Sequence record: JX128257
From: Escherichia phage ECML-4
Length of the DNA stretch: 64,000 nucleotides
Direction: 5' to 3' (one strand)
In this document: one piece after another, positions 1,562 through 63,800 of the stretch
How the letters are laid out: each line of letters starts with the position of its first letter
Numbering within the stretch: position 1 is the first letter of the stretch
Notes under the pieces: model-generated
The model's input: only the letters and a program-made list of their open reading frames with translations
What the model was told of the DNA's origin: nothing
The model's database searches: none
Program-made: the position numbers and the translations under genes

Positions 1562-1602
1562 TTTAAATACCTCTGCAATCACTGCGGAGGTATTTTCTTA
1601 TG
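1562..1602 (+). promoter_or_regulatory. late-promoter-like motif TTTAAATA overlapping a 13 bp hairpin that sequesters the endolysin SD
   Basis: Inverted repeat AAATACCTCTGCA / TGCGGAGGTATTT (about 1565-1595) contains GGAGG 10 nt before the ATG at 1600. Confidence 0.45.
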
Positions 1603-10342: not shown

Positions 10343-10352
10343 CATGGGTTAT
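10343..10352 (-). promoter_or_regulatory. near-consensus late promoter (CATAAATA) upstream of gp5-like gene
   Basis: Reverse complement of GTTATTTATG about 20 nt upstream of the ATG at 10328. Confidence 0.35.
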
Positions 10353-10649
10353 TTATGGCGGGGATTTGAAATCTGTCGAATAGTAATATTATAGGAAGCT
10401 CTGCTTCCGTTCAACTTTATTCTTTTCGTTTCTACTCGCTGAAGCTCGTAACACCGCCTTGACAGGCAGTCCCATTCCAATGCCATGGAGGCATAAAGGC
10501 GAGGAAAATACTGTACACCTCAGAACATGCGTAGAAAAGGATTATTTTTGCTTCAAAACAAATTCAAACCCCAATTTACACAACACTTACTTCAGCAACA
10601 ACGGTGTTATAGCAATTTAAGGTTAAACGTTCCTGTCTTAACCTATAAA

Positions 10650-11667: not shown

Positions 11668-11675
11668 TATTTATA
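11668..11675 (-). promoter_or_regulatory. T4-type late promoter motif TATAAATA (minus strand)
   Basis: Exact TATAAATA on the minus strand upstream of the start at 11639. Confidence 0.5.
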
Positions 11676-12725: not shown

Positions 12726-13325
12726 ATGAAATTTTGCGGAATCGACTATTCTTATGGCTGTCCTGCCATGTGCTTCTGGGATGATAAAGATCCTTTGGAT
12801 TTTGACCATCTTCATTTCTATGCGCATCATACTGTAGAAAAACATTGTCGTCAGGTACGGCATAACATCCTCATTTTACGCCAGCCGAAATATGAATCCC
12901 CAGAAGAACGCTTCTACAATATCTCCAAATGGGCCGAAGCTGTTCTTCTAACCGAGAAGCCTGATTTCATCACCCTTGAGGGGTACGCAATGGGCAACTC
13001 GAAGAATTCCAATAACATATGCCAGACTGCTGAAAATACATCTTTATTGAAGCAAGCAATGCGCCGGAATAATATGGAATTCCAGATCGTCACTCCTTCT
13101 TTCGTTAAAAAGCATTTCTGTGGTAAAGGAAACGCCGATAAATTGGTAATGATCGATCATTTCGAGAAGCTGTTCAACGTTAAGATGCGTGGTATAATGG
13201 ACATGTTGGACGTGAAGGATCCAAAGCCTATCGATGATCTTGTAGACTCATTCGCAAACATGGTGTCTGGACCTTACTTCATAGAAAATTATCCCGATTT
13301 CAATAGAGGTGTAAGAAATGATTAA
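12726..13325 (+). CDS. RuvC-like Holliday junction resolvase (putative)
   Basis: N-terminal GIDYS, internal LEGY and DDLVDSF acidic motifs resembling RuvC/RNase H-fold resolvases; 9 bp hairpin (12689-12719) directly upstream. Confidence 0.5.
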   Translation: MKFCGIDYSYGCPAMCFWDDKDPLDFDHLHFYAHHTVEKHCRQVRHNILILRQPKYESPEERFYNISKWAEAVLLTEKPDFITLEGYAMGNSKNSNNICQTAENTSLLKQAMRRNNMEFQIVTPSFVKKHFCGKGNADKLVMIDHFEKLFNVKMRGIMDMLDVKDPKPIDDLVDSFANMVSGPYFIENYPDFNRGVRND

Positions 13326-13614
13326 TTACTGGCTGTTGGCAGATATACTGCTTTTCGCCTTGCTGTTGATAACGGCATTTATTTGGGTTAAGGGATTTCT
13401 GACATTCCTACACTCGTTGAGTGCCATGATATCTTTCTATGCTGTGTCCCCCCATAGTGACGTCAATGTACGAGCGGCAAATCAATCTGACATGTTGGCT
13501 GAATACGTCATGATGCGTGATAAAGCAACCAGGATCGTCCTGTTTTCTACACTGGCGGGGGCGGTTATTATATTCATACAACACGTCTTGGAGGCAACTC
13601 ATGCCGTTTTATGA
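13318..13614 (+). CDS. hypothetical membrane protein
   Basis: Two hydrophobic segments; GAGGTG SD. Confidence 0.45.
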   Translation: MINYWLLADILLFALLLITAFIWVKGFLTFLHSLSAMISFYAVSPHSDVNVRAANQSDMLAEYVMMRDKATRIVLFSTLAGAVIIFIQHVLEATHAVL

Positions 13615-15495: not shown

Positions 15496-16435
15496 TTTTA
15501 ACGACGTCCTGCAACAATCCGAGTAAACTACTCTTCTCGGACGCCGTCAGGTTATCATTGCCTAATATATCCCTCTGGATGCCGATAGAGATCCTTTCGA
15601 AGTCTGCCAGGCTGATACCCGCCAAATTATTTACAAGCTGATCGAGTTGCTTGTAGGCCAGTAGGGCTTCACCTGTAAAGTTCCCTTCCTTAATTTTTTT
15701 ATACAGCTGTCCGGCTTTTGACGCTGCGGTTTCCCAATCTCCGGAAGCAAGAGCATCAGCAATGCCCAAAGGAAGAAAGTCGCTGGCGAGGCTGCGCGTT
15801 TCATATTCAGTCTCCGATAATACTTTATTGTAAGAGAACGATATATTGTACTGGTTAAATTGGTCGGCGGCACTTTTGTCGAGGTCGATGGAACTGAAGT
15901 TAATAGGATGAGCCTCCGTCACATAAACACGGTGCACCACCTGGTCTTCTGTATCCATTTGCTCTATACAAATATCAGTCACGAAATCTTCGTAATAACC
16001 CATCTTGGTCGTATATGGGTCGAATATCAAATTCTTCCATTTATCCATGACCGACTTTTCATAATAGTCGTTGGCAAGGAGAAATGATAACTCCAGATCA
16101 ACGTTTGTTTTGTTGTTCGGCATCTTAATATGGTTGCCGTTATTTGTCATTGGCGTTGTATCAATCCCAGTACCAGGCAAAGAAGCAACCATACACATCA
16201 TTTGTAAGGAACGAGACGTCTGGTTTGTCCCTCCAAAGAAAGCGTTTACAATACGGGCGCTTTGTTTGAACAGATCCCCAAATGATGAAGATGAAGGATA
16301 TGCGTTGCCGTCATTGGATAGAGTCGCATTAGAATCGAAAATACCAGGCGGCAACGGGATTGTAACACGAAATCTGTTCTTGCGGGAAATCCCCCGCTGA
16401 AGCAGTTGCGTTAGAAAATTGCGATAGTCTTCCAC
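15491..16435 (-). CDS. hypothetical late protein (probably virion/structural)
   Basis: Proposed GTG start at 16435 with GGAG SD and TATAAATA about 35 nt upstream; the track ORF to 16630 would overlap the divergent gene. Start uncertain. Confidence 0.5.
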   Translation of the reverse strand: MEDYRNFLTQLLQRGISRKNRFRVTIPLPPGIFDSNATLSNDGNAYPSSSSFGDLFKQSARIVNAFFGGTNQTSRSLQMMCMVASLPGTGIDTTPMTNNGNHIKMPNNKTNVDLELSFLLANDYYEKSVMDKWKNLIFDPYTTKMGYYEDFVTDICIEQMDTEDQVVHRVYVTEAHPINFSSIDLDKSAADQFNQYNISFSYNKVLSETEYETRSLASDFLPLGIADALASGDWETAASKAGQLYKKIKEGNFTGEALLAYKQLDQLVNNLAGISLADFERISIGIQRDILGNDNLTASEKSSLLGLLQDVVKN

Positions 16436-16469
16436 GATGAGGACTCCATTTAAATAATATATCTGCTGA

Positions 16470-16477
16470 TATTTATA
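16470..16477 (-). promoter_or_regulatory. T4-type late promoter motif TATAAATA (minus strand)
   Basis: Exact TATAAATA on the minus strand in the divergent intergenic region. Confidence 0.5.
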
Positions 16478-16489
16478 AGGAGTTGACAA

Positions 16490-17194
16490 ATGGCCAAGAA
16501 CGCTATGGGTGAAGAAGACCCGTTGTTGCTTCCTGCCGAGATGGACGCCCCAGAATTGGTCAAGCGTTACATCCGCAAATATCGTCAACATTTTGGACCA
16601 GAAGCGAAACGTAATATCCGTCGGTCTCACGTGTGGTTTATGGAACGCGTATCGAAAGATGCCAATTTATCCCCCAACCACATGATGAAGGCGTTTGCTG
16701 AAAATAAACGTCCTGTTCAGGGTGTGCGCTATATTGTTGGTCGCATGTACTATTTCAAATATGATGCGCTGACCAAAGATGAACTCCCGTATTGGGATAT
16801 GTATCCTCTTGTATTCTTCTTCAATTTTGTGAAGGGTGACGGGGTAAAATTTGGGGAACGTGGTGTGACCTATCTTTATGGTCTCAACCTTCATTATTTG
16901 CCACCAAAGCTCAGATTATTAGTGTTTGAAGATCTTATCAAGTTGAGGAACGAAAGAGCGTATCGTTCTAAAACTCGTTTGAGACTTACTTGGGATGCCC
17001 TGAAACGGTTCGCCAATCACCCTCTGTACAACCATTGTGTGAAACTGTACCGCGCTGATCAATTTCGTTCACAGCTTTATGAGATTGAGCCTCAATACTG
17101 GGAAGTTGTTTTGTTTATGCGCACTGCTCGATTCCAGAAACAGAGCCAGATGTCTGTTTGGAAAGACGCTCGTCGTAAACACAAAAATGGTTAG
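16490..17194 (+). CDS. hypothetical protein
   Basis: ORF with AAGGAG SD. Confidence 0.55.
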   Translation: MAKNAMGEEDPLLLPAEMDAPELVKRYIRKYRQHFGPEAKRNIRRSHVWFMERVSKDANLSPNHMMKAFAENKRPVQGVRYIVGRMYYFKYDALTKDELPYWDMYPLVFFFNFVKGDGVKFGERGVTYLYGLNLHYLPPKLRLLVFEDLIKLRNERAYRSKTRLRLTWDALKRFANHPLYNHCVKLYRADQFRSQLYEIEPQYWEVVLFMRTARFQKQSQMSVWKDARRKHKNG

Positions 17195-37056: not shown

Positions 37057-37108
37057 GGTCTGAAGCCCTTAATTAGAATAGAGTAATGACACTATTTAGG
37101 ACTAGAAT

Positions 37109-42277: not shown

Positions 42278-42302
42278 ATAGAAAAGCCCCTTTCGGGGCT
42301 TA
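42278..42302 (-). terminator. rho-independent terminator (minus strand)
   Basis: AAGCCCC-GAAA-GGGGCTT followed by TTTTCTATATC on the minus strand. Confidence 0.7.
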
Positions 42303-42590
42303 TTCTTCATCAGATTTGAAAAGGTTCCATCGGCCTATTCCATACCATTCTCCAATATTGTTGGAGTAGCGGGTTGTCCTAACTCCACCGATTTCGTACC
42401 CCCATTTGAAGAAACTCCATCTTTCCTTTAGGGTGGGTGGTTTATTTCCGGTTGCCAAGGAGCAAGCTGTAAGCCAACGTGCGATACTAATGGCTTGAAA
42501 AATTGGATGAATAAACGAATAATACACAACACCCAGAGTTATAATGACGAAGACGCATGTCGTAATCAACCCGACAATTTCAAAGAACAT
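42300..42590 (-). CDS. hypothetical membrane protein
   Basis: N-terminal TM helix. Confidence 0.45.
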   Translation of the reverse strand: MFFEIVGLITTCVFVIITLGVVYYSFIHPIFQAISIARWLTACSLATGNKPPTLKERWSFFKWGYEIGGVRTTRYSNNIGEWYGIGRWNLFKSDEE

Positions 42591-61119: not shown

Positions 61120-61502
61120 AACACACCATCCACGAGTTGTTCCTTCGTCATACCAAGAAGTTGATTTTTATGACCTGATTCAGCTCCATTTTTCAACAAC
61201 AGATCCCAACGTTCTTCATGATACTGTGGAGTCATTGCATCGTCAAAAGAAACATGGTGGCGATGCATAATTGTTGCAACGGTATGAAGAACGATTGCTG
61301 TCGCTCTTTTTAAAGCACGTGTATCAGTGATATGGTCTTCATATTCAATACCCATCAAATCGAGTTCTTTCCGAATATATGCAATAGACAAATCACCTTC
61401 AGAATGCAATTTAACAATAGTCGCTTTCTTAGGATGTAACACGCCGTCTGTTTCTTTCATGAACAGATCGTACAAATATTGTTTGTATTCGGGGCGCATC
61501 AT
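61116..61502 (-). CDS. hypothetical protein
   Basis: ORF with start/stop overlap. Confidence 0.45.
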   Translation of the reverse strand: MMRPEYKQYLYDLFMKETDGVLHPKKATIVKLHSEGDLSIAYIRKELDLMGIEYEDHITDTRALKRATAIVLHTVATIMHRHHVSFDDAMTPQYHEERWDLLLKNGAESGHKNQLLGMTKEQLVDGVL

Positions 61503-61738
61503 CTCGTAATCCCTCCGGCACAGATAATATTCAGTTCACCGCGACGGAAACCGCCTTGCCCATCGTCCAACTTAGTCAGAGGTGTATGTGCATCTCGAAC
61601 TTTCTGAGCGAACTCTTCCGACACCACCAGATGACCCATCAGAGGAGTCTTTTCTTGTTTTGGGGTGGATTCAAAATAGTCACCGAACGTCGCTTCCATA
61701 TCCAGCACAGACATATCTTCAATTCGTTGCATTGCCAT
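61499..61738 (-). CDS. hypothetical protein
   Basis: ORF with AGGAAA SD. Confidence 0.45.
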   Translation of the reverse strand: MAMQRIEDMSVLDMEATFGDYFESTPKQEKTPLMGHLVVSEEFAQKVRDAHTPLTKLDDGQGGFRRGELNIICAGGITR

Positions 61739-61744
61739 GATGTA

Positions 61745-61815
61745 TTTCCTTGTAAAAGAAAGGGGAACGGGCTAATAATAACCCATTCCCCTTTATTGAA
61801 GAACGCAATCGCAGT
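61745..61815 (-). terminator. terminator hairpin within a repeated intergenic element (minus strand)
   Basis: Minus-strand CGTTCTTCAATAAAGGGGAATGGG-TTATTATTAG-CCCGTTCCCC then TTTCTTTT. Confidence 0.6.
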
Positions 61816-61819
61816 CAGA

Positions 61820-61987
61820 TTACTTTTTCTTCAGCTCTTCCAGCTTGGCTTCAATTTGGTCCAGAATCTCTTTACCTTTCTGGACGATGGCTTCACCGTC
61901 TTGCGCGTGTTTACGAAAAACCAGAGCGCCAGCAATGAAACCAACAACCACGCCTGGGAGCGCATACACCAACAGATCTTGTAACAT
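61820..61987 (-). CDS. small single-pass membrane protein (55 aa) with its own late promoter
   Basis: ORF below the 60 aa track cutoff; GTGAGGAT SD; TATAAATA 31 nt upstream; one TM helix; terminator downstream. Confidence 0.4.
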   Translation of the reverse strand: MLQDLLVYALPGVVVGFIAGALVFRKHAQDGEAIVQKGKEILDQIEAKLEELKKK

Positions 61988-62017
61988 GATTTATATCCTC
62001 ACTTTTATAAGCAAGGA

Positions 62018-62025
62018 TATTTATA
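62018..62025 (-). promoter_or_regulatory. T4-type late promoter motif TATAAATA (minus strand)
   Basis: Exact TATAAATA upstream of the small ORF starting at 61987. Confidence 0.45.
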
Positions 62026-63261
62026 TCATCGTTTCAACAAAGACATGAGGTTTACACTGGTCGACTTCGGATTGTCATCTATCTTCCGGACGGGCATTTT
62101 CAGATTAGTGTAAACCTCAGATGGTTCCCAACGCGTACCCTGCTGCAGGTGCCAAATATGAAGAGGAACACCCGTCTCAAAGAACACAGGCATCTTCCAC
62201 TTCTGGACGCCAGGAACGTGCCCTGCAGGAGCTTTTTCGCATAACAAGGTATCTGGTAGCCAGAGGGAACGGGCTTCCCATAATGCCTTACAGGAGTACT
62301 CAGGCCAGATGCGTTCCATGTAGTCGATCTCATCCCAAGTACGCTCAGCATCCCACCCGATGTAACGAGTGTTTTTCAGACGGAAGAATTTCTTAAGCCA
62401 ACAAGCACCGGAAGTCTCAAAGTTCAAACGATTGATGAACGTGATGTGACCAAACTCGGCGACACAATCTTTGAATGCCTGTTCAAGATCAGCCTCAAGG
62501 ATGTCGCATTCTTCATCGGTGATAGGACAGCCGTTGATCTTTTTCTTTCCGTGCTTGGTCACCCAGTCGTCACGGTTTGACAAGAATGCCGCGCCGTTGC
62601 GGTTGGACTCACTACCATCACGGTCACGCAACATGAACCCAGGGACGTCGATCTGATACATGTTGCCGAATACCATGTTCAGGGCTTCCAGGAAGTTCCA
62701 GGCGCTCAGGCGACCGAAGTATTTCCATCCCATAGCCGTGTCCCATAGCTTAACGAATTGATCACTTTGCAGTTTAGTCTCCAACAACGGACGGAAAGCA
62801 TCCATCTGAGTACGACCAGCTAGCCAATCAATGTAGGACTGAACACACGGGATCATCTTCGATTTGCGATAGCGGCAATCAGTATCGAATCGCATACGCT
62901 CGAAGTTCAGGTTATACCAATCACAGAATCGCTTGAACTCTTGTGGTGACTGAGGCGGTACAGGAAACTCACTATAAATCGTCCATGGGCCAATCCCATT
63001 ATAACAACAGCCCCAAAGGAACGCCATCCAGATCTTGCGCTCGATCTTCTCAAGCTGTGTAATGCCTTCAGTGACTTCAATCGCATAATCCATCAGACGA
63101 ACTTGTTGGTTGTGTTCTTCCGTATACGACAGCGCCTCCACCCATGCTTTGAGCAGATACATCCGATTCTCTGGCTTACGATAATCGATTGACAAATCAA
63201 TTGGGTACTTCCATTCAGCCGGAGGCGTATAACCTGTCGGCATTTTAGATAGATGCGTCAT
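62026..63261 (-). CDS. hypothetical protein (411 aa, Trp/Cys-rich)
   Basis: Long ORF; no domain assignable by eye. Confidence 0.5.
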   Translation of the reverse strand: MTHLSKMPTGYTPPAEWKYPIDLSIDYRKPENRMYLLKAWVEALSYTEEHNQQVRLMDYAIEVTEGITQLEKIERKIWMAFLWGCCYNGIGPWTIYSEFPVPPQSPQEFKRFCDWYNLNFERMRFDTDCRYRKSKMIPCVQSYIDWLAGRTQMDAFRPLLETKLQSDQFVKLWDTAMGWKYFGRLSAWNFLEALNMVFGNMYQIDVPGFMLRDRDGSESNRNGAAFLSNRDDWVTKHGKKKINGCPITDEECDILEADLEQAFKDCVAEFGHITFINRLNFETSGACWLKKFFRLKNTRYIGWDAERTWDEIDYMERIWPEYSCKALWEARSLWLPDTLLCEKAPAGHVPGVQKWKMPVFFETGVPLHIWHLQQGTRWEPSEVYTNLKMPVRKIDDNPKSTSVNLMSLLKR

Positions 63262-63619
63262 CCTTCACCTCGGCTTCGAGTTGGATATCTTCAGGGTTTA
63301 AAACGGGCTGGCCCAAAGACCAAATTGGAAGGAACCGACGGTCATTGGATACTACCCAGATTTGCTTGGCGGTTTTCGTTTTTTCAGAAATATAATGCTG
63401 GGCATTAACCTGAGTCCGTGCCAGCCCAATTTGCCGCCATGCACCGAAATCTTTAGAAGATGGATTGGTGTTCAGCTGGAATTGGGGAATGATTTTATTC
63501 TGTTCCGGATAATATCGGACAGCGTTAATCATATTGGCATCGCCACGATAGTCAACAGCAATAGCAATGGCATTGCGTGGAATAAGAATTTTCATTTTAA
63601 TTCCTTTTGAAACTTTCAA
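63245..63619 (-). CDS. hypothetical protein
   Basis: ORF. Confidence 0.4.
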   Translation of the reverse strand: MKVSKGIKMKILIPRNAIAIAVDYRGDANMINAVRYYPEQNKIIPQFQLNTNPSSKDFGAWRQIGLARTQVNAQHYISEKTKTAKQIWVVSNDRRFLPIWSLGQPVLNPEDIQLEAEVKDDASI

Positions 63620-63800
63620 TTATGTTGTAAACGAACGGCGTTAATAAAGCAACACCGCCCGAATAATATAACGCGTAAACATTCAATATTTCGGTTGAGT
63701 CTAATTCAACGATGCCCAAATATTTCATAACACCGACAAGCATAGCTGAAAAGCACATCACCAGACCGACGAACACAAAATATTTAGACATCTTTTTCAT
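63597..63800 (-). CDS. small membrane protein
   Basis: 67 aa with two hydrophobic segments. Confidence 0.4.
   Translation of the reverse strand: MKKMSKYFVFVGLVMCFSAMLVGVMKYLGIVELDSTEILNVYALYYSGGVALLTPFVYNIIESFKRN

What the first reader, a model, noticed from the sequence alone, without database searches (positions are those of the whole stretch)
61820..61987. Unannotated 55 aa single-pass membrane protein with its own late promoter and terminator
This ORF is below the 60 aa cutoff of the supplied track. It has a GTGAGGAT SD, an exact TATAAATA 31 nt upstream, one predicted TM helix (LLVYALPGVVVGFIAGALVF) and a terminator directly downstream. A small late membrane protein as an independent transcription unit is a candidate lysis regulator (holin/antiholin-like) or virion membrane-interacting factor.
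Basis: partly seen in the sequence, partly recalled or inferred. Interest (0 to 1): 0.45.

Follow-up and report, generated by a model that had tools for sequence, protein, structure and literature searches.

The report
Late-only small phage membrane protein gene
A real, conserved 55-residue single-pass membrane protein of a Vi1-like (Kuttervirus) phage that is wired to be made only late in infection and belongs to a large uncharacterised family of tiny phage proteins that in other phages sit inside the cell-lysis gene cluster, so it is most likely an accessory lysis factor rather than a mystery or an artefact.

Summary
Window 61820-61987 (-) encodes a 55-aa protein under purifying selection, found in about 225 phage records. 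GenBank already annotates it as "hypothetical" or "putative membrane protein" (PHROG 3879, function unknown). The window is a Kuttervirus, 99.9% identical to Salmonella phage vB_Hercules_SET.

The exact TATAAATA is credible as a late promoter. The other two copies in the window sit 28-34 nt upstream of baseplate-hub genes, and five further late genes, the endolysin among them, carry N(T/A)TAAATA at the same spacing.

New finding: the motif runs straight into a conserved hairpin that buries the Shine-Dalgarno sequence. This is the T4 gene e arrangement, which allows translation only from late transcripts. A conserved intrinsic terminator follows the gene.

The protein is predicted as one continuous helix, N-out/C-in, with a GxxxG membrane segment and a cytoplasmic coiled-coil tail. 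At least 165 clusters of 32-93 aa relatives exist. In two prophages the gene follows Rz/Rz1 directly. In two or three other lineages it lies next to an endolysin or spanin-like gene.

It is absent from Klebsiella Taipeivirus and from purified virions, but retained in genome-reduced mutants. Best reading: a late accessory lysis factor. Being the main holin is unlikely. It weakly resembles the N-terminus of host ZapG/YhcB.

The parts
62018..62025 (-). T4-type late promoter motif TATAAATA. It starts directly after the TGA stop (62026-62028) of the upstream thymidine-hypermodification gene (ADDT / aGPT-Pplase2).
   Evidence: one of only 3 exact copies in the window; the other two lie 28 and 34 nt upstream of baseplate-hub start codons, and the endolysin, gp2, gp5 and tail-tube cap genes carry N(T/A)TAAATA at 26-36 nt. 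TATAAATA, or CTAAATA / CTAAGTA, is kept at this position in Kuttervirus, Agtrevirus, Limestonevirus and metagenomic relatives. An exact TATAAATA also precedes the distant homolog in the T4-like Erwinia phage FBB1.
61993..62020 (-). Hairpin that sequesters the ribosome-binding site. The 5' arm ATATCCTTGCTT (62020-62009) overlaps the last 3 nt of the promoter motif. The loop is ATAA. The 3' arm AAGTGAGGATAT (62004-61993) contains the Shine-Dalgarno GAGG.
   Evidence: -18.3 kcal/mol in a read-through RNA. An RNA starting 6 nt after the motif loses the 5' arm and folds at only -2.7; 90.8% of cells paired across 12 relatives against 29-61% for slid controls, with a compensatory U-A to C-G change in L014. 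Serratia phage 3M and Erwinia phage FBB1 have hairpins of different sequence in the same place that also bury the SD.
61995..62002 (-). Shine-Dalgarno region GTGAGGAT, 7 nt upstream of the ATG.
   Evidence: sequence. GAGG is invariant or nearly so in 12 relatives.
61820..61987 (-). Coding sequence of the 55-aa protein, stop codon included. It is a member of PHROG 3879.
61916..61975 (-). Codons 5-24: transmembrane helix LLVYALPGVVVGFIAGALVF with the family motif VGF(I/V)AGALV and a G12xxxG16xxxG20 glycine zipper.
   Evidence: G16, F17, G20, L22 and R25 are at least 90% conserved in 39 diverse members; positively charged residues average 0.03 before the membrane segment and 4.0 in the 15 residues after it (155 sequences), which predicts N-out/C-in; continuous helix.
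61823..61915 (-). Codons 25-55: RKH anchor followed by an amphipathic, charged helix with a heptad seam (V35, L42, I45, L49, L52). Predicted to be cytoplasmic.
   Evidence: heptad register, hydrophobic moment 1.44; only generic coiled-coil matches among solved structures..
61754..61794 (-). Intrinsic terminator: 14-16 bp G+C-rich hairpin followed by TTTCTTTT. The next gene (79 aa, 61499-61738) starts 16 nt further on.
   Evidence: -32.2 kcal/mol, z = -4.8. (conserved in 9 relatives; one-sided changes keep the pairs)..

Best explanation
The gene encodes a small inner-membrane protein that the phage makes only late in infection.

Expression control:
- Transcripts that read through from the upstream early/middle DNA-modification gene carry the ribosome-binding site locked in a hairpin.
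- Transcripts started by the phage's gp55/gp33-type late RNA polymerase at TATAAATA begin just past the hairpin's 5' arm, so they can be translated.
- A strong terminator ends this short mRNA.

The protein:
- Its short N-terminus faces the periplasm.
- A GxxxG-rich helix spans the membrane.
- A 30-residue charged coiled-coil tail lies in the cytoplasm.

Proposed function: it oligomerises, with itself or with other lysis membrane proteins, and tunes the final lysis step. It would act as an accessory to the holin (co-holin, antiholin or timing factor) rather than as the hole-former.

Shown here: the gene is real and conserved; the promoter motif, hairpin and terminator exist and are conserved; the family exists and sits in lysis cassettes elsewhere.

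Inferred: the transcription start point, the topology, the oligomerisation and the lysis role.
For: Late promoter:
- All three exact TATAAATA copies in the window lie 28-34 nt before start codons. Two precede baseplate-hub genes.
- The soluble muramidase endolysin, gp2, gp5 and the tail-tube cap carry N(T/A)TAAATA at the same spacing.
- ViI-like phages encode gp55, gp33 and gp45 homologs (PMC3184105, PMC3121705). D5lw annotates gp33 in the syntenic region of its genome.

SD hairpin:
- -18.3 kcal/mol in read-through RNA against -2.7 in the predicted late RNA.
- Conserved, with one compensatory change.
- Re-created with different sequences in Miltonvirus 3M and in the T4-like phage FBB1.
- The endolysin gene of the same phage has the same design at -18.0 kcal/mol.
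- This is the documented T4 mechanism for genes e, soc, 49 and I-TevI (PMC3014915).

Family:
- A profile search found 165 clusters at E <= 1e-3, almost all 37-93 aa.
- All 39 members tested match PHROG 3879.

Lysis-gene neighbours:
- Rosenbergiella prophage: holin, GH19 endolysin, Rz/Rz1, then the family member, whose ATG overlaps the Rz stop (TAATG).
- Enterobacteriaceae G50 prophage: holin, holin, endolysin, Rz/Rz1, then a 32-aa member, then terminase.
- Contig L085: the member lies directly before a gene matching endolysin PHROGs; M15 peptidase class is my reading of its sequence.
- L165 group: endolysin at position -2 in L165, and within three genes upstream in all five loci of the group.
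- About 53 contigs of a 43-aa subfamily: the member lies directly before a 250-aa protein with a lipobox and C-terminal membrane segments (u-spanin-like), with a weak holin-like hit at +2 or +3.

Retention: every genome-reduced selz/SenALZ1 mutant record seen carries the gene (six records). That includes the 118.6-kb and 121.8-kb genomes, although genes 78-83 right beside it were deleted.
Against: - No experiment bears on this protein.
- In Ackermannviridae it lies next to DNA-modification and unknown genes, not lysis genes. The endolysin is about 60 kb away in the window.
- Many family members have neighbours unrelated to lysis: ferredoxin, QueE, PhoH, major head protein, or unknown genes. 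The association is therefore partial, and I did not test it statistically. The region between the lysis and terminase genes is also a known hot spot for unrelated 'moron' genes.
- Klebsiella Taipeivirus lacks the gene at this locus and gave no tblastn hit. It is therefore not a core lysis component of the whole family.
- Covariation support for the hairpin is thin: 2 pairs with double changes, and 9 of 500 shuffles reach the observed score.
- The late promoter of ViI-like phages has never been mapped experimentally (PMC3184105).
Confidence: 0.4

Rival explanations
1. It is the phage's actual holin: a minimal single-pass holin that accumulates late, then forms holes that let the soluble muramidase endolysin reach the cell wall.
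For: - No holin has been identified for ViI-like phages (PMC3184105, PMC3121705, PMC9686305).
- The endolysin has no signal or SAR segment, so it needs a holin.
- The protein has the generic holin features: small, one membrane segment, highly charged C-terminus, late expression.
- It shares the late-promoter-plus-SD-hairpin design with the endolysin.
- It is retained in every genome-reduced selz mutant seen.
Against: - No significant match to any holin family. The best are PHROG 198 at E = 0.2 (membrane segment only) and nothing among Pfam holin families.
- In two prophages it is an extra gene beside canonical holins.
- Klebsiella Taipeivirus lacks it.
- It is not next to the endolysin.
- One record labels another candidate, a 196-aa membrane protein beside the DNA polymerase gene, as 'holin'. 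Pfam and PHROG do not support that label.
Confidence: 0.12
2. It mimics the N-terminal membrane-anchor and coiled-coil module of the host protein ZapG/YhcB (also called LapD). It would mix into or compete with host YhcB assemblies late in infection and so disturb cell division or envelope synthesis.
For: - The family profile aligns over its whole length with residues 4-51 of E. coli YhcB: hhalign probability 76.5%, E = 2.2e-5, 33% identity.
- BLASTP finds 11 of 18 identical residues across the membrane segment.
- 7 of 39 members hit Pfam ZapG-like and 6 of 39 hit the NCBIfam ZapG model.
[quoted passage not shown] That would fit a role in helping lysis.
Against: - Scores are far below the curated cut-offs: 16 bits against 150.
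- RNase Y N-terminal region matches equally often (7 of 39 members), which suggests a shared architecture rather than specific mimicry.
- Membrane segments followed by coiled coils give spurious similarity easily.
- Many family members come from environmental viral contigs. YhcB is restricted to gamma-proteobacteria (PMC8163987), and I did not determine the hosts of those contigs.
Confidence: 0.12
3. It is a mobile 'moron'-type small membrane protein with a role outside lysis. Examples would be exclusion of superinfecting phage, protection of the membrane or its potential during late infection, or help with assembly at the membrane. Its position beside lysis genes would reflect where such genes tend to insert.
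For: - It is a self-contained unit with its own promoter and terminator.
- Its location differs in Miltonvirus (near rIIA) and in FBB1 (after tRNA genes).
- The genes just downstream of its terminator vary between close relatives.
- It is present or absent depending on the genus.
- Many members have neighbours unrelated to lysis.
Against: - Exclusion and immunity proteins in T4 are early, not late (my own knowledge).
- In Rosenbergiella the start codon overlaps the Rz stop, which suggests co-translation with the lysis operon.
- The same position recurs in cassettes built from non-homologous holins, endolysins and spanins.
- Its ortholog is not listed among the proteins found in purified Sajous1 virions.
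Confidence: 0.3
4. It is not a functional gene: a chance ORF, or the real gene is the 132-142 aa ORF on the opposite strand (61556/61586-61984, +).
For: The antisense ORF is longer, and a naive longest-ORF rule picks it.
Against: - Purifying selection acts on the minus-strand frame.
- The protein is conserved in 225 records and in distant phages.
- The antisense ORF would span the terminator and a second conserved minus-strand gene. Its open length varies from 85 to 144 aa among relatives.
Confidence: 0.02

Closest known systems
T4 gene e (lysozyme), and likewise soc, 49 and I-TevI: a late promoter combined with a hairpin that hides the ribosome-binding site (PMC3014915)
   Same: TATAAATA lies immediately upstream of, and overlaps, the 5' strand of a hairpin whose 3' strand is the Shine-Dalgarno sequence. 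Read-through early transcripts are predicted to be untranslatable, and late transcripts lack the 5' strand. The endolysin of this same phage has the same design.
   Different: The family is different (Ackermannviridae), and its late promoter has never been mapped. The regulated product is a 55-aa membrane protein. The start point and the block to translation are predicted, not measured.
Holins. The small single-pass examples (T7 gp17.5, Borrelia BlyA) and the class III T4 holin T are cited from my own knowledge.
   Same: Small size, one membrane segment, highly charged C-terminal tail, late expression, and a glycine-zipper-type membrane helix suited to oligomerisation.
   Different: No sequence relationship to any holin family in Pfam or PHROG. 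It occurs in addition to canonical holins in prophage cassettes. It is not adjacent to the endolysin in this genome. Hole formation is untested.
Antiholins and lysis-timing accessories: T4 RI and RIII, lambda S107, P1 LydB, P2 LysA (my own knowledge)
   Same: A small extra protein encoded in or near lysis cassettes that is not itself the endolysin, holin or spanin. The cytoplasmic tail could contact the cytoplasmic parts of a holin, as RIII does.
   Different: No sequence similarity. RI is periplasmic and RIII is soluble, whereas this protein is membrane-anchored with a predicted cytoplasmic tail. No interaction data exist.
Host ZapG/YhcB (DUF1043) and the N-terminal region of RNase Y
   Same: An N-terminal membrane anchor (N-out) is followed at once by a basic residue cluster and a cytoplasmic coiled coil. 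The family aligns with YhcB residues 4-51.
   Different: It covers only the first 40% of YhcB and lacks the rest of DUF1043. It scores far below the family thresholds. It is encoded by phages.
Phage 'morons': independent promoter-gene-terminator units such as lambda bor, which lies beside Rz/Rz1 (my own knowledge)
   Same: A self-contained transcription unit inserted between unrelated genes. Presence is patchy, location is variable, and in prophages the position is between the lysis and terminase genes.
   Different: Classical morons are expressed from the prophage. This gene has a late lytic promoter and a block on early translation, and in one prophage it appears translationally coupled to Rz.

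Membership tests
PHROG 3879 (phage protein family of unknown function) | Significant full-length match to the family profile | tested here: met
   E = 3.5e-32, residues 2-55 against profile positions 1-54 of 54. All 39 diverse relatives also match.
T4-type late transcription unit (gp55/gp33/gp45-dependent) | TATAAATA-type motif a short distance upstream of the gene, on the coding strand | tested here: met
   Exact motif 30 nt before the ATG. Bona fide late genes in the same window show the same motif and spacing.
T4-type late transcription unit (gp55/gp33/gp45-dependent) | The phage encodes the late sigma factor gp55, co-activator gp33 and sliding clamp gp45 | not tested
   Taken from the literature for CBA120, ViI and AG3 (PMC3184105, PMC3121705) and from the D5lw annotation of gp33 in the syntenic region of D5lw. 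I did not re-derive it.
T4-type late transcription unit (gp55/gp33/gp45-dependent) | A transcript 5' end about 6 nt downstream of the motif that appears only after DNA replication starts | not testable with these tools
   The library searches turned up no transcriptome or start-site map for any Kuttervirus.
T4 gene e-type translational control | A stable hairpin pairs the Shine-Dalgarno sequence, and its 5' strand lies at or upstream of the late transcription start | tested here: met
   -18.3 kcal/mol against -2.7 for the predicted late RNA. 90.8% paired across relatives, one compensatory pair. Analogous hairpins of different sequence in 3M and FBB1.
Intrinsic (rho-independent) terminator | A G+C-rich hairpin followed directly by a run of U | tested here: met
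   TTTCTTTT follows the stem.
Holin (functional class) | Small membrane protein with at least one membrane segment and a charged C-terminus, expressed late | tested here: met
   Late expression is inferred from the promoter and hairpin.
Holin (functional class) | Sequence membership of a described holin family | tested here: not met
   No Pfam holin family matches. PHROG 198 'holin' matches at E = 0.2, over the membrane segment only.
Holin (functional class) | Lethal hole formation that releases endolysin at a set time | not testable with these tools
   This needs expression and lysis assays.
i-spanin (Rz-like) | N-in/C-out topology, a long periplasmic coiled coil and a partner o-spanin lipoprotein gene | tested here: not met
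   The charge distribution predicts C-in. The tail is only 30 residues. No embedded or adjacent lipoprotein gene is present. Only 2 of 39 relatives give a weak Rz-like hit.
ZapG/YhcB (DUF1043; PF06295, NF008672) | Match above the curated family threshold that covers the DUF1043 domain | tested here: not met
   NCBIfam gives 16 bits against a cut-off of 150. No Pfam hit for the window protein; 7 of 39 relatives hit at E >= 4.5e-4. hhalign covers only YhcB residues 4-51.
Virion structural protein | Detected in purified particles | tested here: not met
   The ortholog Sajous1 gp101 is absent from the Sajous1 virion mass-spectrometry list in Table 6 (PMC10892097). This is weak negative evidence, because small membrane proteins are often missed.

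The most novel reading that the evidence does not exclude
PHROG 3879 would be a widespread, so far unrecognised class of phage 'mini-YhcB' proteins. These would be 40-90 residue copies of the membrane-anchor and coiled-coil module of the host envelope and division organiser ZapG/YhcB (LapD). Phages would produce them strictly at the end of infection. They would co-assemble with and disable the host protein, or the holin rafts. That would weaken envelope maintenance and set the moment of lysis. It would be a fourth functional component of Gram-negative lysis cassettes, alongside holin, endolysin and spanin.
Probability: 0.12. Interest if true: 0.75.

Novelty: new variant of a known kind. Interest (0 to 1): 0.42.

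Why it matters
How Vi1-like phages time and carry out lysis is still open. These phages are widely used against Salmonella, E. coli O157 and Dickeya. Papers from 2011 to 2022 state that no holin is known, although lysis inhibition is observed.

This gene is a small, easily deleted candidate. Its regulation says 'never before late', and its relatives sit inside lysis cassettes. That makes the question directly testable.

Two by-products are useful in their own right:
- Evidence from within the genome that N(T/A)TAAATA is the late promoter of this family.
- Evidence that the T4 trick of hiding the ribosome-binding site from early transcripts is used here for both the endolysin and this gene.

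The family is large (at least 165 clusters at 50% identity) and entirely uncharacterised. A result in one phage would therefore annotate many.

Tried and rejected
- Simple terminator scan: missed the real hairpin. Direct folding found it.
- Motif count alone: not above chance, so I used position relative to known late genes instead.
- Pfam, NCBIfam and solved-structure searches: no membership. Only architecture-level or generic coiled-coil matches.
- Fold search: not attempted, because the model is a single helix and would give meaningless matches.
- tblastn with the FBB1 homolog found only FBB1 itself; with the metagenomic member P0029, no match.
- A Rosenbergiella-type member against plasmids: nothing.
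- E. coli prophages match only the Rz part of the G50 cassette, not the small gene.
I replaced it with degenerate DNA patterns, which were highly specific.
- Neighbour annotation of environmental contigs: mostly 'no family', so I could not compute a proper enrichment statistic.
- Single-linkage clustering of the tiny proteins collapsed 120 of 138 into one cluster and was useless for dereplication.
- The supplementary table of the genome-reduction paper, which would say whether gene 77 was ever deleted, is not held. I used the deposited mutant genomes instead.
- Literature searches for a Kuttervirus transcriptome, for the family motif and for the PHROG number found nothing.
- The 'holin' label on the D5lw 196-aa protein is not backed by Pfam or PHROG.
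- Rejected readings: the antisense 132-142 aa ORF as the real gene, a spanin, and a virion protein.

Full report
**What the window is.** The region around the finding is 99.9% identical to Salmonella phage vB_Hercules_SET. It is 80-99% identical to more than 200 other Ackermannviridae of the genera Kuttervirus, Agtrevirus and Limestonevirus. The finding lies in a long block of minus-strand genes. In order, this block runs from the DNA polymerase gene through a deoxyribonucleotidase, a thioredoxin and the thymidine-hypermodification genes (HMUD2 kinase and ADDT / aGPT-Pplase2). It then continues through several small unknown genes, a 369-aa membrane protein and a LemA-like protein to rIIB and rIIA.

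**The observation.**
- The ORF is 61820-61987 (-), 55 aa.
- GTGAGGAT lies 7 nt before the ATG.
- An exact TATAAATA at 62025-62018 starts immediately after the stop codon of the ADDT gene, 30 nt before the ATG.
- Residues 5-24 are hydrophobic.
- A strong hairpin with a U-run follows at 61794-61754: -32.2 kcal/mol, z = -4.8.

The ORF is a real gene.
- Codon differences between relatives are mostly synonymous, for example 19 synonymous against 4 non-synonymous between the window and AG3.
- The protein is found in 225 phage records.
- It matches PHROG 3879 at E = 3.5e-32.

It is 'unannotated' only in the supplied track. GenBank relatives call it a hypothetical or putative membrane protein: CBA120 orf249, AG3 orf00248, SenALZ1 gp077, Sajous1 gp101. 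The longer ORF on the opposite strand (61556-61984) is spurious. It would cover the terminator and a second conserved gene, and its length is not conserved.

**Is TATAAATA a promoter here?** The count alone says nothing: 3 copies against 1.8 expected. The literature also says the late promoter of ViI-like phages has not been identified (PMC3184105), although AG3 was scanned with the T4 consensus (PMC3121705). Position is informative.
- The other two exact copies lie 28 and 34 nt upstream of the start codons of two baseplate-hub genes, on the correct strand.
- With one mismatch allowed, the same motif at 26-36 nt precedes four more late genes. These are the endolysin (TTTAAATA), the gp2-like DNA end protector (TTTAAATA), gp5 (CATAAATA) and the tail-tube cap (CCTAAATA).
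- Positions 20-40 nt upstream of a start codon make up under 2% of the window on my own rough estimate. Three out of three is therefore not chance.
- The motif is kept in relatives as TATAAATA, CTAAATA or CTAAGTA at the same place.
- An exact TATAAATA also precedes the only homolog found in a T4-like phage, Erwinia phage FBB1, where the T4 rule is expected to apply.

**A second layer of control.** The last three bases of the motif and the next nine (ATATCCTTGCTT) pair with AAGTGAGGATAT. That second strand contains the Shine-Dalgarno sequence.
- An RNA that reads through from the ADDT gene folds this hairpin at -18.3 kcal/mol.
- An RNA beginning 6 nt after the motif, where T4 late transcripts begin, lacks the 5' arm and folds at only -2.7.
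- Across 12 relatives, 90.8% of cells are paired, against 29-61% when the partner is slid. One lineage has a compensatory U-A to C-G change and others have G-U changes. The covariation evidence is thin, because both arms are constrained for other reasons.
- Serratia phage 3M and Erwinia phage FBB1 have hairpins of quite different sequence at the same place, and these also bury the SD.
- The endolysin gene of this phage has the same arrangement: TTTAAATA, then a 13-bp hairpin over GGAGG, -18.0 kcal/mol.

This is the mechanism established for T4 genes e, soc, 49 and I-TevI. There, early read-through transcripts are not translated and late transcripts are (PMC3014915). The gene is therefore set up for strictly late synthesis, and the terminator makes the late mRNA monocistronic.

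**The protein.**
- AlphaFold2 with a 39-sequence alignment predicts one continuous helix, residues 2-54, pLDDT 81.6.
- In 155 family sequences the N-terminal side of the membrane segment carries on average 0.03 Lys+Arg. The 15 residues after it carry 4.0. The positive-inside rule therefore predicts N-out/C-in.
- The membrane segment carries G12xxxG16xxxG20 inside the family motif VGF(I/V)AGALV. G16, F17, G20, L22 and R25 are at least 90% conserved.
- The tail has a heptad seam and gives only generic coiled-coil matches to solved structures.

**The family.**
- A profile search of 1.84 billion representative proteins found 165 clusters at E <= 1e-3. Almost all are 37-93 aa and align end to end.
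- All 39 members tested match PHROG 3879.
- Degenerate DNA patterns for the motif recovered about 140 further loci in IMG/VR, nearly all of them true members.
- No curated family contains these proteins. Weak, sub-threshold matches go to the ZapG/YhcB and RNase Y N-terminal regions.
- A profile-to-sequence comparison aligns the whole family with residues 4-51 of E. coli YhcB: probability 76.5%, E = 2.2e-5.
- I read this as the same architecture (N-out anchor plus cytoplasmic coiled coil) and possibly more than that, but not as family membership.

**Neighbourhood evidence for function.** In Ackermannviridae the gene always follows ADDT. The genes after its terminator vary. In Miltonvirus it sits near rIIA, and in FBB1 it sits after a tRNA cluster.

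In phages with compact, ordered genomes it repeatedly lies among lysis genes.
- A Rosenbergiella prophage has holin, GH19 endolysin, Rz/Rz1 and then the member. Its ATG overlaps the Rz stop.
- An Enterobacteriaceae prophage built from non-homologous holins, endolysin and spanins has a 32-aa member at the same position, before the terminase.
- Contig L085 has the member directly before a gene matching endolysin PHROGs; I read that gene as an M15-type peptidase.
- The L165 group has an endolysin within three genes upstream of the member, at -2 in L165 itself.
- About 53 contigs of a 43-aa subfamily place it between the tail genes and a 250-aa protein with a lipobox and C-terminal membrane segments. 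That protein looks like a unimolecular spanin on architecture only. A weak holin-like hit lies two or three genes on.

Other members sit among unrelated or unknown genes. The association is real but partial, and I could not put a proper statistic on it.

**Other constraints.**
- Klebsiella Taipeivirus has ADDT followed directly by the next conserved gene. It has no copy of this gene there and gave no tblastn hit. The gene is therefore not core to the family.
- The ortholog Sajous1 gp101 is not listed among the proteins detected by mass spectrometry of CsCl-purified Sajous1 virions (Table 6) (PMC10892097).
- In the CRISPR genome-reduction study of phage selz (= SenALZ1; PMC9825161), every deposited mutant genome I examined keeps the gene. 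These are 143.6, 139.1, 134.5, 124.0, 121.8 and 118.6 kb.
- In clone selz_232L the deletion of genes 78-83 begins 32 nt after this gene's stop codon and removes its terminator. This fits a useful gene but does not prove that it is essential.
- The endolysin (PG_binding_1 plus Muramidase domains, no signal sequence) needs a holin, and none is established for these phages (PMC3184105, PMC3121705, PMC9686305).
- One record labels a 196-aa membrane protein beside the DNA polymerase gene as 'holin'. Neither Pfam nor PHROG supports that label.

**Verdict.** On function, I commit to a late-made, N-out/C-in inner-membrane protein that acts as an accessory to lysis, most plausibly by joining or modulating holin assemblies through its glycine-zipper helix and cytoplasmic coiled coil (confidence about 0.4). 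The alternatives and their approximate confidences are:
- a moron-type membrane protein with a role outside lysis (about 0.3);
- the main holin (about 0.12);
- a mimic of host ZapG/YhcB (about 0.12).

The gene itself is ordinary in the sense that it is already catalogued as a conserved hypothetical. Three things are new: the late-only control shared with the endolysin, the size of the family, and its recurrent place in lysis cassettes.

Noticed in passing
window 1562-1602 (+), upstream of the endolysin gene 1600-2394: The endolysin (PG_binding_1 plus Muramidase domains, no signal or SAR segment) is preceded by TTTAAATA. A 13-bp hairpin follows directly (AAATACCTCTGC...GCGGAGGTATTT, -18.0 kcal/mol) and buries its GGAGG ribosome-binding site. 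This is a close analogue of the T4 gene e control, apparently not described for Ackermannviridae.
   Followed up: partly
window 16432-16545 (both strands); also 10350-10357 (-), 11668-11675 (-), 37093-37100 (-): Late-promoter-like motifs N(T/A)TAAATA lie 26-36 nt upstream of six late genes. A back-to-back pair (TTTAAATA on +, TATAAATA on -) sits in the divergent baseplate-hub / gp2 intergenic region. This suggests a working consensus for the late promoter of ViI-like phages, which has never been mapped.
   Followed up: partly
window 61556-61984 (+): A 132-142 aa ORF lies antisense to the 55-aa gene, its terminator and the next gene. A longest-ORF rule would pick it. Its open length is not conserved in relatives (85-144 aa), so it is almost certainly not a gene.
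   Followed up: yes
window 61499-61738 (-) and the equivalent place in L001, L011-L019: The genes just downstream of the terminator differ between close relatives. The window has one 79-aa gene, Guerrero has two of 63 and 73 aa, and some relatives have none before the 369-aa membrane protein. This looks like a hot spot for small-gene exchange.
   Followed up: partly
window 63597-63800 (-); 13318-13614 (+); 42300-42590 (-): Three other small predicted membrane proteins of unknown function: 67 aa with 2 membrane segments, 98 aa with 2, and 96 aa with 1 (PHROGs 4514, 4696, 2531). The AG3 paper listed proteins of this kind as possible holins (its 65-aa orf244 may correspond to the 67-aa one, not checked), and none has been tested.
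   Followed up: partly
L001 11814-12404 (+) (Salmonella phage Guerrero; outside the window, divergent from the DNA polymerase gene): The D5lw record labels this 196-aa protein, which has central hydrophobic segments, as 'holin'. Pfam gives no hit and PHROG 2524 is 'unknown function'. It remains a candidate holin for Kuttervirus.
   Followed up: partly
L004 (MZ375357.1) versus L005 (NC_049440.1); also OL964746.1: In genome-reduced selz/SenALZ1 mutants, the deletion of genes 78-83 starts 32 nt after the stop codon of the 55-aa gene. It removes the gene's terminator and joins it to another hairpin plus T-run. The small gene is kept in every mutant genome seen.
   Followed up: yes
L119 1581-1658 (Klebsiella phage Magnus): In Taipeivirus the ADDT gene is followed after 78 nt by the homolog of the 128-aa gene. 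Both the 55-aa gene and the 79-aa gene are missing.
   Followed up: partly
L039 and about 50 similar IMG/VR contigs, the gene directly after the 43-aa family member: A conserved protein of about 250 aa has an N-terminal lipoprotein signal (LAGC), a long coiled coil and 2-3 C-terminal membrane segments. No PHROG or Pfam family matches it. By architecture it looks like an unusually long unimolecular spanin.
   Followed up: no
window 62026-63261 (-): The start of the ADDT / aGPT-Pplase2 ORF is ambiguous. The longest ORF gives 411 aa, but Hercules_SET, Guerrero and Sajous1 annotate 405 aa (1218 nt) while D5lw and SenALZ1 annotate the longer 1236-nt form.
   Followed up: no
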